From: Escherichia phage vB-Eco-KMB40
Sequence record: OR539220.1
DNA: 64,000 nt
Reading direction: 5' to 3' (one strand)
A model generated the notes under the pieces. It was not told the DNA's origin and did no database searches. It saw only the letters and a list, made by a program, of their open reading frames with translations. This document shows, one piece after another, positions 34,678-63,120 of the stretch. A program made the position numbers and the translations under genes. Numbering within the stretch: the first letter of the stretch is position 1; each line of letters opens with the position of its first letter.

Positions 34678-34707
34678 CAAAAAGCCCCAACCTTTTGGTC
34701 GGGACTA
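34678..34707 (-). terminator. intrinsic terminator (GTCCCGACC-AAAA-GGTTGGGGC plus TTTTT on minus strand)
   Basis: 9-bp stem plus T-run; near-identical copy at 35238..35265. Confidence 0.6.
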
Positions 34708-34713
34708 AGAATG

Positions 34714-35187
34714 TTATTTGATTTGTTTAGCAGACCAAATGCGGTCTTTAATAATTTTTTGGATGTCTTCAACATACTCAAGAGAATGAGCATGTGGGTT
34801 ATCTTTAAAGCTATGAGCACGAGCTAGCTTTTGGCCTTCAGTTTTGATTACTAAAAGCTCTTTAAGGATAGCTTCATATTTGGAGATAATTCCTTTAACG
34901 ATATTTTTTTCTTGTGCGACTTTAGGATCTGCTTTAGGAGCAGGTTTACCCGAAGCCTTTGCAAAAGCAGCGCCAGTAGCAACTAAACTTTTCCAGGCCA
35001 TACTAACTGCATTTCCCGTAAATCCTTCCGCTTTCATGTCGCGTGCGAACTGGAATCGTGATTCATCAGAAGCATCTTTGTAAGAATATTTACCCGCTGC
35101 AATGGCTGCTTTTGCGACAGCTTGAATTTCGGTGCTAGATGCTTCATTTAACACCGCTTCATTTAAAAATTGAGTATATGATTTCAT
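34714..35187 (-). CDS. internal-protein-like head protein with variant capsid-targeting N-terminus (157 aa)
   Basis: N-terminus MKSYTQFLNEA resembles IP capsid-targeting sequence; Ala/Lys-rich mature region. Confidence 0.5.
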   Translation of the reverse strand: MKSYTQFLNEAVLNEASSTEIQAVAKAAIAAGKYSYKDASDESRFQFARDMKAEGFTGNAVSMAWKSLVATGAAFAKASGKPAPKADPKVAQEKNIVKGIISKYEAILKELLVIKTEGQKLARAHSFKDNPHAHSLEYVEDIQKIIKDRIWSAKQIK

Positions 35188-35237
35188 CTTATTTCCTGTT
35201 TTAATTCGTGGTTTTAATATACTACTATATTTATACC

Positions 35238-35265
35238 AAAAAGCCCCAACCTTTCGGTCGGGGCT
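35238..35265 (-). terminator. intrinsic terminator (GCCCCGACC-GAAA-GGTTGGGGC plus TTTTT on minus strand)
   Basis: 9-bp GC stem with GAAA tetraloop plus T-run; ends the tRNA/stable-RNA transcription unit. Confidence 0.65.
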
Positions 35266-35573
35266 AAGCCTTGCGGCAACCTTGTCGGGGTTCCACCTGC
35301 TAAGGCAAGTGTTTGTACGAAACGCCGGGATTCGAACCCGGTTATTAAGTAGTTGACGCTACTCAATATTTTTAAAAGGCCATATCTCGACCCATATCCG
35401 AACGTTCCGTCAAAAACGCTACTCGGCTTACGGCAAAGATATTTCCTCGAATCGATAATTCGGTGCGCCGTTTCTGCTGTGATAGTAAAGAGCCAGAACA
35501 CAGTAAAACTGTGGGAGGAAACTATACTCCAGGGAACATCAGTCCGACGACTTACCGGTAGCGACCCGGTTTC
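35266..35573 (-). ncRNA. GC-rich structured non-coding region; candidate small stable RNAs (T4 rnaC/rnaD-like)
   Basis: No convincing ORF; minus strand has canonical T-arm CCGGG-TTCGAAT-CCCGG and several hairpins; lies 3' of tRNA-Arg. Confidence 0.35.
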
Positions 35574-35924
35574 TTAGTATTCTTTTAAAGCATCAACCTG
35601 TTCACGACGTTTACGCCATAAATCAATTACTTCATACGCAGATTCAGCATTTCGAATTGGACGGCATTTATATAAAGACTTGTGATTTTGATATTGTGTA
35701 GATAACGGAATTTTATCTAAAAGGTCTTTACGTTCAAAATATTCGTAACCATCTAAACCAAATGAACGATTTTTGAGAAATTGCCAATGACCATATTCGT
35801 TTTCGACATAAACATAATCTGCATGCTGATAAAGCAAATTAATTAAGCGTTCAGAAATAACAGTGTCATTGTGATTAAAATAGAATGTTAAATCATGAAC
35901 TACTAAATAAACATTACCTTTCAT
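35574..35924 (-). CDS. hypothetical protein (116 aa) just 3' of tRNA-Arg
   Basis: ORF track; no motif. Confidence 0.4.
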   Translation of the reverse strand: MKGNVYLVVHDLTFYFNHNDTVISERLINLLYQHADYVYVENEYGHWQFLKNRSFGLDGYEYFERKDLLDKIPLSTQYQNHKSLYKCRPIRNAESAYEVIDLWRKRREQVDALKEY

Positions 35925-35942
35925 ATTTTCCTCACTTATAAT

Positions 35943-36018
35943 TGGTCGAGGCAGTAGGGATCGAACCTACGACCCAGGACTTAGAAGGTCCTTGCTCTTC
36001 CTTCTGAGCTATGCCCCG
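35943..36018 (-). tRNA. tRNA-Arg (anticodon UCU)
   Basis: Manual fold: 7-bp acceptor, D arm GCTC/GAGC, anticodon loop CTTCTAA, T loop TTCGATC, CCA encoded. Confidence 0.85.
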
Positions 36019-36022
36019 TAAT

Positions 36023-36098
36023 TGGGGTGACCGATGGGAGTCGAACCCATGACTACGAGAATCACAATCTCGAGTTCTACCAACTGAACTACGGCCAC
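36023..36098 (-). tRNA. tRNA-His (anticodon GUG)
   Basis: Manual fold: canonical arms, anticodon loop TTGTGAT, discriminator C, CCA encoded. Confidence 0.8.
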
Positions 36099-36212
36099 AT
36101 TAATACCTACTCCAACAATCAAGATGTCTTCACACGAAATTAAGAGAAGAGTGATCAGTTCAACCCCTATAATCGCGTCAAGTAGATATTAATGTGACAG
36201 TTGTCACAAATT

Positions 36213-36287
36213 TGGCGGACGTGATAGGATTCGAACCTATAACCAATCGCTTAACAGGCGATCGCTCTGCCATTGAGCTACACATCC
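36213..36287 (-). tRNA. tRNA-Asn (anticodon GUU)
   Basis: Manual fold: D arm GCTC/GAGC, anticodon loop CTGTTAA, T loop TTCGAAT, CCA encoded. Confidence 0.8.
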
Positions 36288-36291
36288 AAAT

Positions 36292-36378
36292 TGGTGGGGA
36301 GTGATGGAGTCGAACCACCCGAGTCGCAATGACAATGAATTTACAGTCCACACCGCTACCTCTACGGGATAACTCCCC
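36292..36378 (-). tRNA. probable tRNA-Tyr (anticodon GUA), long variable arm
   Basis: Canonical acceptor, anticodon arm (loop CTGTAAA) and T arm; 15-nt variable arm; D arm non-canonical (4 nt between acceptor and D stem). Confidence 0.6.
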
Positions 36379-36390
36379 TAATTCATAATT

Positions 36391-36465
36391 TGGTGGCCCT
36401 GGGTGGAATTGAACCACCATCTGGCGATTATGAGTCGCTTGCTTGAACCTTCCAGCTACAGGGCC
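36391..36465 (-). tRNA. tRNA with CAU anticodon (Met, or Ile if C34 is modified as in T4 tRNA-Ile)
   Basis: Manual fold: anticodon loop CTCATAA, T stem GGTGG/CCACC, CCA encoded. Confidence 0.75.
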
Positions 36466-36466
36466 T

Positions 36467-36542
36467 TGGTGCTGATTGACGGAATCGAACCGCCGACATC
36501 CTCATTACAAGTGAGGTGCTCTACCTACTGAGCTAAATCAGC
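36467..36542 (-). tRNA. tRNA-Thr (anticodon UGU)
   Basis: Manual fold: canonical cloverleaf, anticodon loop CTTGTAA, CCA encoded. Confidence 0.85.
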
Positions 36543-36547
36543 AAAAC

Positions 36548-36637
36548 TGGCGGAGGCGATAGGATTTGAACCTATGAGTCGCCGGAGCGACTGCCGGTTT
36601 TCAAGACCGGTGCATTAAACCACTCTGCCACGCCTCC
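36548..36637 (-). tRNA. tRNA-Ser (anticodon UGA), long variable arm
   Basis: Manual fold: anticodon stem CCGGT/ACCGG, loop CTTGAAA, 18-nt variable arm, CCA encoded. Confidence 0.85.
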
Positions 36638-36639
36638 AG

Positions 36640-36713
36640 TCTCCGCGGCAGGATTTGAACCTACGACATTCTGCTCCCAAAGCAGACGCTCTACCAAACT
36701 GAGCTACACGGAG
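36640..36713 (-). tRNA. tRNA-Pro (anticodon UGG)
   Basis: Manual fold: anticodon loop TTTGGGA, T loop TTCAAAT; CCA not encoded. Confidence 0.85.
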
Positions 36714-36723
36714 TAAATTAAAT

Positions 36724-36797
<74 letters not shown>

Positions 36798-36802
36798 AAA
36801 TT

Positions 36803-36889
36803 TGGTGCGAGAAGTGGGACTCGAACCCACAAGGAAATCATTCCGCAGCATTTTAAGTGCTGTGCCTTTACCAATTTGACCATTCTCGC
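36803..36889 (-). tRNA. tRNA-Leu (anticodon UAA), long variable arm
   Basis: Sequence GCGAGAATGGTCAAATTGGTAAAGGCACAGCACTTAAAATGCTGCGG...GTGGGTTCGAGTCCCACTTCTCGCACCA matches T4 tRNA-Leu as recalled. Confidence 0.9.
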
Positions 36890-36890
36890 G

Positions 36891-36963
36891 CTGGGAATAA
36901 AGGACTCGAACCTTTGCATCTAGCAGTCAAAGTGCTATGCCTTACCAACTTGGCTAATTCCCA
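36891..36963 (-). tRNA. tRNA-Gln (anticodon UUG)
   Basis: Manual fold: anticodon loop CTTTGAC, T arm AAAGG-TTCGAGT-CCTTT; CCA not encoded; first tRNA of the cluster. Confidence 0.85.
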
Positions 36964-37049: not shown

Positions 37050-37565
37050 TTAAAGCAAATTAAACATTTTAACGGTCGGCAAAACAATTTCTTCTTCTAT
37101 ATAAGAGTATTTAACACTCTCAACTACACGCAAAAAATCATAATCATAATACTCAGAAGCATTACCTAAAATATTAATAAGTCCTTCAAGCACTTTATTA
37201 CCATTCACAAAGAATAAGTCAAATACGCGTTCTTCGTCTTCTTCGGATTTATTACCAAGGTCAACTTCTATATCAAAGACCTTTTTAATGAATTCTGGAT
37301 AAAGTTGTTCTGAGAACAGTCCTTCAACCAAGTATTCATAAATAAAAAGCGATTGCTCGCTGAACAAGCCATTACCACAATAACGTTCAGCTTTAGTACT
37401 AGAATGTCTACTTTTAAACTTCTTTAAAAGATATTGAAATTGTAAGATTTCATGCTCTTCTACGCCAAACAGTGTTTTAGTTTTATAGTTGTCACCATCA
37501 TTTTCCCAGGTAGTGACATCAATTACGTAACCCTGTGGAATTGTAGTACCTAAACAAATATTCAT
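37050..37565 (-). CDS. hypothetical protein (171 aa)
   Basis: ORF track. Confidence 0.45.
   Translation of the reverse strand: MNICLGTTIPQGYVIDVTTWENDGDNYKTKTLFGVEEHEILQFQYLLKKFKSRHSSTKAERYCGNGLFSEQSLFIYEYLVEGLFSEQLYPEFIKKVFDIEVDLGNKSEEDEERVFDLFFVNGNKVLEGLINILGNASEYYDYDFLRVVESVKYSYIEEEIVLPTVKMFNLL

Positions 37566-59979: not shown

Positions 59980-63120
<3,141 letters not shown>

What the first reader, a model, noticed from the sequence alone, without database searches (positions are those of the whole stretch)
35266..35573. GC-rich, ORF-free structured region with a tRNA-like T-arm between tRNA-Arg and a strong terminator
This 300-bp stretch is clearly more GC-rich than surrounding phage DNA and has no credible ORF. 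Its minus strand contains a canonical T-arm (CCGGG-TTCGAAT-CCCGG) next to a stem-loop resembling an anticodon arm, plus other hairpins, and ends at the terminator at 35238..35265. It probably encodes stable small RNAs processed with the tRNAs (T4 has species 1 and 2 RNAs here), but a degenerate tRNA or novel regulatory RNA cannot be excluded.
Basis: partly seen in the sequence, partly recalled or inferred. Interest (0 to 1): 0.45.

Follow-up and report, generated by a model that had tools for sequence, protein, structure and literature searches.

The report
T4 stable RNAs rnaD and rnaC
This GC-rich stretch is this phage's copy of two small stable RNAs known in phage T4 since the 1970s (species 2/rnaD and species 1/rnaC), so the locus is not new, but comparing relatives shows rnaC is a tRNA-shaped, non-decoding RNA whose two long arms are locked together by a conserved loop-loop contact.

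Summary
Window 35266-35573 is 48% G+C against a 35% window mean, has no conserved ORF, carries a perfect T-arm on the minus strand, and ends at an intrinsic terminator. It aligns with T4 rnaD (species 2 RNA) and rnaC (species 1 RNA). By homology, rnaD is about 35462-35577(-), rnaC is 35316-35455(-), and a conserved trailer at 35266-35315 runs into the terminator at 35237-35265. Its function remains unknown in the literature I could search.

New here:
- rnaC occurs in at least 10 genus-level lineages of T4-like phages, often placed in tRNA arrays exactly like a tRNA gene.
- Covariation supports a 7-bp acceptor stem formed by the 5' and 3' ends, a T-arm, and two arms whose 6-nt loops (UUGACG/CGUCAA) are complementary in 22 of 22 sequences, with two independent compensatory changes.
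- The 94-nt "tRNA" reading, annotated as tRNA-Lys in another record, fails covariation.
- rnaD has conserved ends and a swappable apex, and it occurs without rnaC in some phages.

The most likely mechanism is co-transcription with the tRNAs and excision by tRNA-processing enzymes. A role as a tRNA mimic is inferred, not shown.

The parts
35462..35577 (-). rnaD ortholog (T4 species 2 RNA). It is a 5' hairpin followed by a long imperfect hairpin with a variable apex. Its 5' end overlaps the stop codon of ORF116.
   Evidence: Aligns with T4 rnaD 71053-71171. The boundaries are transferred from the T4 annotation and were not measured.
35554..35570 (-). rnaD 5' hairpin, ACCGG-GUCGCUA-CCGGU (5 bp, 7-nt loop).
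   Evidence: The closing pair covaries (A-U 12, G-C 2, G-U 1). The same palindrome was flagged on the + strand by the terminator scan.
35480..35531 (-). rnaD variable apex. The window has the 'type B' cassette, which differs from T4's.
   Evidence: At least three unrelated apex cassettes sit between invariant flanks in 15 distinct sequences. The helix below the apex covaries at columns 49-53/97-101 and at column 38/110 (U-A 8, A-U 6).
35456..35461 (-). 6-nt spacer (GAAUUA) between rnaD and rnaC.
35316..35455 (-). rnaC ortholog (T4 species 1 RNA), 140 nt. It is a tRNA-like four-way junction. The covariance-model hit at 35313-35455 includes the conserved CAA tail.
   Evidence: About 98% identical to T4 rnaC 70908-71046. 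The covariance model scores it at 159 bits. The folding z-score is -3.55. Covariation is shown.
35448..35454 (-). rnaC acceptor stem, 5' strand CGAUUCG. It pairs with 35318-35324 (CGUUUCG) and includes a tandem U.U mismatch.
   Evidence: Alignment column 4/146 is G-C in 14 sequences and A-U in 8. Tegunavirus converts both U.U mismatches to U-A and C-G.
35377..35447 (-). rnaC arm 1, in the D-arm position. It is a junction helix AGG/CCU followed by a long bulged stem ending in loop UUGACG (35408-35413).
   Evidence: Nineteen of its 21 variable-stem pairs show compensatory changes. Two sequence classes keep the same architecture.
35369..35376 (-). Single-stranded linker UUUAAAAA between arm 1 and arm 2. 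The A-run is nearly invariant.
35343..35368 (-). rnaC arm 2, a 10-bp stem with a 6-nt loop CGUCAA (35353-35358). That loop is complementary to the arm 1 loop, giving a 6-bp kissing interaction.
   Evidence: The stem has 8 of 10 pairs with compensatory changes. The loop-loop helix is paired in 22 of 22 sequences, with compensated changes in Tegunavirus (UUGAUG/CAUCAA) and Marfavirus (UUGGCG/CGCCAA).
35325..35341 (-). rnaC T-arm, CCGGG-UUCGAAU-CCCGG. It is directly followed by the acceptor 3' strand (35318-35324), then U, then ACAA.
   Evidence: The stem covaries at column 127/139 (G-C 10, U-A 10, A-U 1, U-G 1).
35266..35315 (-). Conserved 3' trailer with small hairpins (CACUUGC-CUUA-GCAGGUG and GCC-GCAA-GGC).
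   Evidence: The trailer is present in T4 and also in phages that lack rnaC, where it follows rnaD directly.
35237..35265 (-). Intrinsic terminator of the tRNA/rnaD/rnaC transcription unit.
   Evidence: PMC2330249 states that T4 transcription of the tRNA cluster terminates after the species I RNA gene.

Best explanation
The region holds the orthologs of phage T4's two small stable RNAs. On the minus strand the order is rnaD (species 2), a 6-nt spacer, rnaC (species 1), a short structured trailer, and an intrinsic terminator.

Shown:
- Homology to the annotated T4 genes.
- rnaC is a conserved structured RNA, 141-145 nt long in every lineage sampled.
- rnaC has a 7-bp acceptor stem made by its own 5' and 3' ends, stacked tRNA-fashion on a canonical T-arm.
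- The D-arm and anticodon arm are replaced by a long bulged arm and a 10-bp arm whose 6-nt loops are mutually complementary. This is a kissing-loop lock, either within one molecule or between two.
- rnaC has no 7-nt anticodon loop, so it cannot decode.

Inferred:
- Both RNAs are made as part of the tRNA-array transcript. That transcript would run from the MotA-box promoter candidate near 37051-37059, through the 11 tRNAs and ORF116, to the terminator.
- rnaC is cut out like a tRNA. RNase P recognises the acceptor/T-arm minihelix and sets the 5' end, and 3' exonucleases trim back to the stem.
- The same RNase P cut, followed by trimming of the 6-nt spacer, would set the 3' end of rnaD.

Function is not shown. 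My committed guess, at roughly 0.3, is that rnaC acts as a rigid tRNA mimic that occupies or recruits a tRNA-binding factor, such as a host processing or modification enzyme or a tRNA-targeting defence nuclease. I also guess that rnaD, with invariant ends and an exchangeable apex, is a separate module with a host-specific role.
For: Identity:
- The T4 RefSeq record annotates rnaC and rnaD just downstream of tRNA-Arg.
- The window aligns to them.
- About 750-800 T4-like phage records carry the same sequence.

rnaC structure:
- MAFFT-only alignment A3 (13 sequences): 94.8% of cells paired, and 18 pairs with double changes against 6.4 +/- 1.6 in shuffles (0 of 500 shuffles as high). Slid controls pair at 37-45%.
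- Alignment A6 (22 distinct sequences, at least 10 genus-level lineages): 93.3% paired, and 32 of 52 pairs compensated against 17.5 +/- 2.0 (0 of 500).
- The kissing helix is paired in 22 of 22 sequences with two independent compensated changes. Its columns were unpaired in the covariance model, so the alignment is not biased toward it.

tRNA-like handling of rnaC:
- In four phages of Karam-, Gelderland- and Kagamiyamavirus, rnaC lies 5-7 nt after one tRNA and 2-8 nt before the next.
- The acceptor/T-stem-loop minihelix is a sufficient RNase P substrate, and T-even tRNAs are made from closely spaced multimeric precursors (PMC11143913).

Expression in T4:
- RNAC and RNAD were detected and classed as late RNAs, with a Northern blot using an RNAC probe (PMC9697503).
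- The primary transcript covers the eight tRNAs plus the species I and II RNAs (PMC2330249).

Host-specific role for rnaD:
- A single convergent SNP in rnaD arose in all three lines of phage BW1 adapted to E. coli ECOR34 (PMC12685909).

Modularity:
- rnaD occurs without rnaC through a precise absence, and also in another genomic context.
Against: - No transcript ends were measured for this phage. The boundaries are transferred from the T4 annotation.
- RNase P dependence of species 1 RNA rests on my memory of 1970s-80s work and on the architecture. It was not tested here.
- In this phage an ORF, not a tRNA, precedes rnaD, so the nuclease that makes rnaD's 5' end is unknown.
- The basal stem of rnaD is invariant, so covariation says nothing about it. 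The rnaD fold is no more stable than shuffled sequence (z = -0.28).
- rnaC is cleanly missing in some T4-like phages. From memory, T4 deletions of the whole tRNA region grow on laboratory hosts. Any function is therefore conditional.
- Covariation cannot distinguish an intramolecular kissing contact from an intermolecular one (a dimer).
- Many sequences are closely related, so cell counts overstate the number of independent events.
- Nothing here identifies a binding partner.
Confidence: 0.8

Rival explanations
1. The 3' two-thirds of rnaC (35317-35410) is a degenerate or unusual tRNA gene of about 94 nt. Its 8-bp acceptor stem would be formed by the internal segment ACGGAACG and CGUUUCGU, and it would carry a long extra arm.
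For: - In this phage and in T4 the internal segment pairs perfectly with the 3' strand.
- Rfam gives a weak tRNA-Sec-like alignment of 17 bits.
- GenBank record MK327946 annotates the same element as tRNA-Lys(ttt).
- ARAGORN calls the equivalent stretch of Pet-CM3-4 a 96-nt tRNA-Phe.
Against: - The internal helix has no compensatory change. It is broken at column 49/138 in 7 of 13 sequences, which are all the sequences that carry C rather than U at column 138. The same substitutions preserve the terminal acceptor stem and helix 4.
- The 17 bits is far below the family's 47-bit threshold.
- ARAGORN finds no tRNA here in the window.
- There is no 7-nt anticodon loop.
- The T4 RNA is annotated at 139 nt, not 94.
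Confidence: 0.03
2. The region encodes small proteins, as many GenBank records annotate it ('hypothetical protein').
For: - Mechanical ORFs of 95 aa (minus strand) and 74 aa (plus strand) span it.
- Many phage records place CDS features over the homologous stretch.
Against: - No Pfam match.
- Both ORFs are broken in T4, where a 1-nt indel relative to the window lies inside them.
- Other homologs carry further 1-nt indels.
- Substitutions are compensatory for RNA pairing rather than synonymous.
Confidence: 0.02
3. The two RNAs are stable by-products with no function in trans. They would be structured spacer and 3'-end elements that help fold, process or protect the polycistronic tRNA transcript, and they persist only because they resist nucleases.
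For: - They sit at the 3' end of the tRNA operon, next to the terminator.
- rnaC is dispensable in some natural phages.
- No function has been found in about 50 years (PMC3014915, PMC9697503).
- The rnaD fold is not unusually stable.
Against: - The loop sequences, the kissing complementarity, the A-rich linker and the 3' tail of rnaC are held nearly invariant across at least 10 genus-level lineages while the stems drift. That is more constraint than a spacer needs.
- rnaC keeps its form both inside tRNA arrays and at their end.
- The rnaD ends are invariant in several unrelated contexts.
- A single rnaD SNP was the only shared change in lines of a T4-like phage that gained virulence on one host (PMC12685909).
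Confidence: 0.15
4. rnaD (with or without rnaC) takes part in phage-host conflict. It would be either an RNA that a host defence system senses or an RNA that blocks such a system. The exchangeable apex would reflect diversifying selection or cassette swapping.
For: - A convergent single SNP in rnaD arose in 3 of 3 lines adapting to ECOR34, with a large gain in virulence (PMC12685909).
- There are at least three unrelated apex cassettes between invariant flanks. Apex type is uncoupled from flank variants and from the presence of rnaC.
Against: - The evidence is one published experiment with no mechanism.
- The SNP could act in cis on neighbouring genes.
- No antisense target of 13 nt or more exists within this window.
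- No defence or anti-defence protein is linked to the locus here.
Confidence: 0.2

Closest known systems
Phage T4 rnaC (species 1 RNA, ~140 nt)
   Same: About 98% identical over its full length. It is on the same strand and in the same position upstream of the same trailer and terminator. The covariance-model scores are similar (159 bits here, 166 bits for T4).
   Different: One extra G in arm 1. Upstream there is an ORF plus rnaD, not tRNA-Arg plus rnaD.
Phage T4 rnaD (species 2 RNA, ~119 nt)
   Same: The 5' hairpin, the basal stem and the 3' end are identical or nearly so, and it sits immediately 5' of rnaC.
   Different: About 50 nt at the apex is replaced by an unrelated cassette. The RNA starts at the stop codon of a 116-aa ORF instead of 2 nt after tRNA-Arg.
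Canonical tRNA (Rfam RF00005)
   Same: A 7-bp acceptor stem formed by the two ends, contiguous with a 5-bp T-stem and a UUCGAAU T-loop. It sits in tRNA arrays with tRNA-like spacers.
   Different: No D-arm, no 7-nt anticodon loop, no encoded CCA, and twice the length. There is a tandem U.U mismatch in the acceptor stem. The tRNA model does not match it.
tmRNA tRNA-like domain
   Same: The 5' and 3' ends pair into an acceptor stem next to a T-arm. The rest of the molecule is a non-tRNA body closed by tertiary pairing. tmRNA is also an RNase P substrate (PMC11143913).
   Different: No G3.U70 pair, no tag reading frame, and only about 140 nt against about 360 nt. It has one loop-loop helix rather than pseudoknots. 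ARAGORN and Rfam find no tmRNA.
Bacterial and phage Y-RNA-like YrlA with a tRNA-like module (from memory, not tested by alignment)
   Same: A non-coding RNA that embeds a T-arm-containing tRNA mimic.
   Different: In YrlA the RNA ends form the Ro-binding stem and the tRNA-like part is internal. Here the ends form the acceptor stem. No Rfam family reached E <= 10 here apart from sub-threshold noise.

Membership tests
T4 rnaC / species 1 RNA | Full-length sequence homology to the annotated T4 rnaC gene | tested here: met
   About 98% identity over 140 nt. The covariance model built from relatives scores it at 159 bits, E = 1e-35.
T4 rnaC / species 1 RNA | Located on the tRNA strand, within or at the 3' end of the phage tRNA array, upstream of the operon terminator | tested here: met
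   The homologs are flanked by tRNAs.
T4 rnaC / species 1 RNA | Accumulates as a stable ~140-nt RNA in infected cells | not testable with these tools
   Reported for T4 (an RNAC riboprobe was used for the Northern blot in PMC9697503). There are no expression data for this phage.
T4 rnaD / species 2 RNA | Sequence homology to the annotated T4 rnaD gene, immediately 5' of rnaC | tested here: met
   The 5' ~45 nt and 3' ~25 nt are nearly identical and the position is the same. The middle ~50 nt is non-homologous, a cassette variant shared with other T4-like phages.
Canonical tRNA | Cloverleaf with a D-arm and a 5-bp anticodon stem carrying a 7-nt loop; detected by tRNA models | tested here: not met
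   ARAGORN finds none at this site. RF00005 does not match. tRNA-Sec scores 17 bits against a 47-bit threshold. The internal acceptor stem that this reading needs fails covariation.
Canonical tRNA | 7-bp acceptor stem stacked on a 5-bp T-stem with a 7-nt T-loop | tested here: met
   Helices 1 and 8. T-loop UUCGAAU.
tmRNA | tRNA-Ala-like acceptor stem with G3.U70, a tag-peptide reading frame, and pseudoknots | tested here: not met
   ARAGORN finds no tmRNA and Rfam finds none. The 3:70 pair is A-U or G-C.
Any Rfam 15 family | Reaches a family gathering score | tested here: not met
   Only the tRNA genes pass in the window. In 35150-36000 at E <= 10 there are only sub-threshold matches.
Protein-coding gene | Reading frame conserved among homologs | tested here: not met
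   The frames are broken in T4 and by 1-nt indels elsewhere. No Pfam hit.

The most novel reading that the evidence does not exclude
rnaC would be a previously uncharacterised class of phage tRNA mimic. It would be an acceptor/T-arm 'handle', processed by the host tRNA machinery, fused to a kissing-loop-locked body. It would act as a decoy or scaffold for a tRNA-binding host factor such as a tRNA-targeting defence nuclease. rnaD, with its exchangeable apex, would be a companion host-range determinant. Nothing here excludes this reading, and nothing here demonstrates it.
Probability: 0.2. Interest if true: 0.7.

Novelty: already known. Interest (0 to 1): 0.33.

Why it matters
The locus itself is textbook T4 and adds nothing new as a gene discovery.

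Its value is indirect. Species 1 and 2 RNAs are abundant phage RNAs whose role has been unknown for about 50 years. They are absent from Rfam and are routinely mis-annotated as hypothetical proteins or odd tRNAs.

The comparative model gives concrete handles for experiments:
- the terminal acceptor stem and the T-arm;
- a 6-bp loop-loop contact with natural compensatory variants;
- an invariant A-rich linker;
- a modular rnaD apex.

The model would also support a proper RNA family definition.

Tried and rejected
- **Rfam.** Scans at gathering score and at E <= 10 returned only tRNA genes and noise.
- **94-nt tRNA reading.** Tested and rejected by covariation.
- **Coding reading.** Rejected.
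- **Antisense targets.** No complementarity of 13 nt or more between rnaC or rnaD and the rest of the window.
- **Wider distribution.** I scanned metagenome contigs and bacterial genomes with a 21-base rnaC signature, and viral contigs with a pattern that depends only on the two loops and the T-loop, then filtered the viral-contig hits with the covariance model. No lineage appeared outside T4-like phages. The bacterial hits and about 70 viral hits were chance matches.
- **Extra T-arm-like match at 62203-62213.** It lies inside a 610-aa ORF and has no flanking stem, so it is chance.
- **Literature.** Searches for the original species 1 RNA sequence and structure papers, and for the Miller 2003 T4 genome review, found nothing held. 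I therefore cannot say whether the kissing-loop or acceptor-stem model was proposed before.
- **NAD-RNAylation preprint.** Its only 'rnaC' match is the grant name RNACoenzyme.

Full report
**1. What is in the sequence**

The window is a T4-like phage of the genus Tequatrovirus. A 401-bp query across the finding matches 809 phage records, mostly Escherichia and Shigella T4-like phages, at 80-99% identity.

On the minus strand the layout is as follows:
- ARAGORN finds 11 tRNA genes at 35943-36963, ending with tRNA-Arg at 35943-36018.
- A 116-aa ORF follows at 35574-35924. It belongs to phrog_3355, of unknown function.
- The finding (35266-35573) comes next.
- A 10-bp, 7-GC terminator hairpin with a U-tract lies at 35242-35265.

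The finding is 48.4% G+C against a window mean of 35.1%. That puts it in the top 0.6% of 308-bp windows and close to the tRNA array's 48.0%. The T-arm CCGGG-UUCGAAU-CCCGG is at 35325-35341.

Two mechanical ORFs cross the region. They have no Pfam match. Both are broken in T4, which differs from the window by a 1-nt indel inside them.

**2. Identity**

The T4 reference record annotates two misc_RNA features just downstream of tRNA-Arg. These are rnaD ('species 2 RNA', 71053-71171) and rnaC ('species 1 RNA', 70908-71046).

The window aligns to them directly:
- rnaC is nearly identical to T4, with one extra G.
- rnaD shares its first ~45 nt and last ~25 nt with T4, but its middle ~50 nt is unrelated.
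- The ~50-nt trailer and the terminator are conserved.

Transferring the T4 boundaries gives rnaD at about 35462-35577, a 6-nt spacer, rnaC at 35316-35455, the trailer at 35266-35315, and the terminator at 35237-35265.

Rfam has no family for either RNA. Only the tRNA genes reach gathering scores. At E <= 10 the best match here is a 17-bit tRNA-Sec-like alignment against a 47-bit threshold.

The literature I could reach says the roles of both RNAs are unknown (PMC3014915). It also says both were detected and classed as late RNAs in T4, with a Northern blot using an RNAC probe (PMC9697503). It describes them as part of the ~1.75-kb tRNA-cluster transcript that terminates after the species I gene (PMC2330249).

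**3. rnaC structure from comparison**

BLAST with the window's rnaC, and then with two of the divergent homologs it found, turned up relatives at 69-86% identity in other genera. I fetched these loci. A signature scan of viral contigs added more.

A MAFFT alignment of 13 distinct sequences gave an RNAalifold consensus. On that structure:
- 94.8% of cells are paired.
- 18 pairs carry changes on both sides, against 6.4 +/- 1.6 in shuffles (0 of 500 shuffles as high).
- Controls with the partner slid by 1-3 columns pair at only 37-45%.

A covariance model built from this alignment found one full-length hit in the window, at 35313-35455 with 159 bits. It also found full-length hits in Mosig-, Kagamiyama-, Karam-, Kanagawa-, Teguna-, Gelderland-, Marfa- and Moonvirus and in an unclassified straboviral phage.

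On 22 distinct sequences, 93.3% of cells pair and 32 of 52 pairs show compensatory change, against 17.5 +/- 2.0 in shuffles (0 of 500). That alignment is fitted to the model, which favours the model's helices. The MAFFT-only result shows the same picture.

The structure has these parts:
- **Acceptor stem.** A 7-bp stem is made by the RNA's own ends (CGAUUCG / CGUUUCG). It has a tandem U.U mismatch in 20 of 22 sequences. Position 4 is A-U in 8 sequences and G-C in 14. Tegunavirus converts both U.U mismatches to U-A and C-G.
- **T-arm.** A 5-bp stem with a 7-nt loop is contiguous with the acceptor 3' strand, as in tRNA. One stem pair is G-C in 10 sequences, U-A in 10, A-U in 1 and U-G in 1.
- **Arm 1.** This is a long bulged arm in the D-arm position. 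It comes in two unrelated sequence classes with the same architecture.
- **Linker.** An almost invariant A-rich single strand joins arm 1 to arm 2.
- **Arm 2.** A 10-bp arm with a 6-nt loop lies 1 nt before the T-arm.
- **3' tail.** After the acceptor stem come U and then ACAA (UCAA, CCAA or ACAG in a few phages). No CCA is encoded.

Total length is 141-145 nt in every lineage.

**4. A loop-loop contact**

The apical loop of arm 1 (UUGACG, window 35408-35413) is the exact complement of the apical loop of arm 2 (CGUCAA, 35353-35358).

Both loops are otherwise invariant. Where they do change, they change together:
- Tegunavirus has UUGAUG / CAUCAA.
- Marfavirus has UUGGCG / CGCCAA.

The 6-bp helix is paired in 22 of 22 sequences, with two compensated positions. 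These columns were unpaired in the covariance model, so the alignment is not biased toward the helix.

The data cannot tell whether the contact forms within one molecule, which would force arm 1 to fold back on arm 2, or between two molecules as a dimer.

A weaker hint comes from the Q7622-type Kanagawavirus RNAs. There the T-loop changes to UGCAUGC, and the unpaired GG next to the junction changes to CG in the same sequences. That would fit a T-loop/GG contact like the tRNA elbow. It is a single lineage, so it is only a lead.

**5. The '94-nt tRNA' reading**

In this phage and in T4, an internal segment (ACGGAACG) can also pair with the 3' strand. That pairing gives a 94-nt cloverleaf-like object. 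It is what the Rfam tRNA-Sec alignment picks up. One GenBank record annotates it as tRNA-Lys(ttt). ARAGORN calls the equivalent stretch tRNA-Phe in Pet-CM3-4.

Across lineages this helix has no compensatory change. It breaks in 7 of 13 sequences at the very position where the terminal stem is compensated. I reject this reading.

**6. Genomic behaviour**

Spacing of rnaC relative to neighbouring tRNAs:
- In four phages of Karam-, Gelderland- and Kagamiyamavirus, rnaC sits inside the tRNA array. It lies 5-7 nt after tRNA-Trp or tRNA-Phe and 2-8 nt before tRNA-Gly or tRNA-Trp.
- In Kanagawavirus Q7622 it starts 5 nt after tRNA-Met.
- In Tegunavirus it ends 5 nt before tRNA-Trp.

It is therefore placed and spaced like a tRNA gene. 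That fits excision by RNase P acting on the acceptor/T-arm minihelix, which is a known sufficient substrate (PMC11143913), followed by 3' trimming. RNase P dependence itself was not tested here.

rnaD was found only in ~170-kb T4-like contigs. Its features are:
- The 5' hairpin covaries.
- One mid-stem pair switches between U-A (8 sequences) and A-U (6 sequences).
- The helix below the apex covaries.
- The apex comes in at least three unrelated cassettes.
- Apex type is uncoupled from flank variants and from the presence of rnaC.

Five contigs have rnaD followed directly by the trailer, with rnaC precisely absent. One contig has rnaD alone in another context. The two RNAs are separable modules.

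**7. Mechanism and function**

The identity, the rnaC fold, and rnaC's tRNA-like genomic handling are shown.

The following steps are inferred:
- Transcription from the promoter candidate upstream of the array. A MotA-box match lies at 37051-37059.
- Read-through of ORF116 and termination at 35242-35265.
- An RNase P cut at the rnaC 5' end, which together with trimming would also set the rnaD 3' end.

Function is unknown. My best guess, at about 0.3, is a non-decoding tRNA mimic that engages a tRNA-binding factor.

A published experiment is the only functional lead, and it concerns rnaD. A single rnaD SNP arose in all three lines of a T4-like phage adapting to E. coli ECOR34 and was associated with a large virulence gain (PMC12685909).

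The alternative that both RNAs are functionless stable by-products keeps about 0.15.

**8. Verdict**

Interest is modest. What this analysis adds is a structural and phylogenetic model for an old orphan RNA. It does not add a new kind of element.

Noticed in passing
window 34683-35235: Relative to T4, this phage has an inserted module downstream of the rnaC terminator. The module has an exact late-promoter motif TATAAATA (35228-35235, minus strand), a 157-aa ORF (34714-35187, phrog_2280, unknown function), and a second near-identical copy of the terminator (34683-34706). After that second terminator, homology to T4 resumes. Related ORFs follow rnaD in L024, L071 and L072.
   Followed up: partly
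window 35574-35924: A 116-aa ORF (phrog_3355, unknown function; weak sub-threshold DUF2654 hit) lies between tRNA-Arg and rnaD. In T4, rnaD starts 2 nt after tRNA-Arg. The stop codon of this ORF overlaps the start of rnaD.
   Followed up: partly
window 36099-36212: A 114-nt gap in the otherwise tight tRNA array, between tRNA-His and tRNA-Asn. On the minus strand it contains a 7-bp perfect palindrome (TGTGACA-AC-TGTCACA). No tRNA, Rfam or rnaC-model hit falls there.
   Followed up: no
L027, L071, L072, L079, L088 (about 150 nt downstream of the CCGGGTCGCTACCGG match); L024: Some ~170-kb T4-like contigs carry rnaD joined directly to the trailer (GCGCACCGAA|CACTTGCC), with rnaC precisely missing. 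L024 has rnaD alone in a different neighbourhood. The covariance model finds no rnaC in any of these loci.
   Followed up: yes
L002 3140-3233; L004 1547-1642; L105 1516-1653; L110 342-515; L111 362-472: Public records and tRNA finders mis-annotate rnaC. It appears as a 94-nt tRNA-Lys(ttt), as a 96-nt tRNA-Phe(gaa) called by ARAGORN, or as small hypothetical proteins.
   Followed up: yes
L003 1506-1648 and L020 4200-4342 (Kanagawavirus Q7622 type): These rnaC copies have a non-canonical T-loop (UGCAUGC instead of UUCGAAU). In the same sequences, the unpaired GG beside the junction changes to CG. This may be a covarying tertiary contact like the tRNA elbow, but it is seen in one lineage only.
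   Followed up: no
window 35266-35300: The trailer contains a near-repeat of the terminator's 5' arm: AACCCCGAC, against AGCCCCGAC in the terminator. That repeat could pair instead with the terminator's 3' arm. The significance is unknown.
   Followed up: no
window 35316-35455: The 9-mer GAGUAGCGU occurs twice in rnaC, once in arm 1 and once running into the arm 2 loop, in different structural contexts. The arm 1 copy is absent from the Melville-class arm 1, so it may be coincidence or an old duplication.
   Followed up: no
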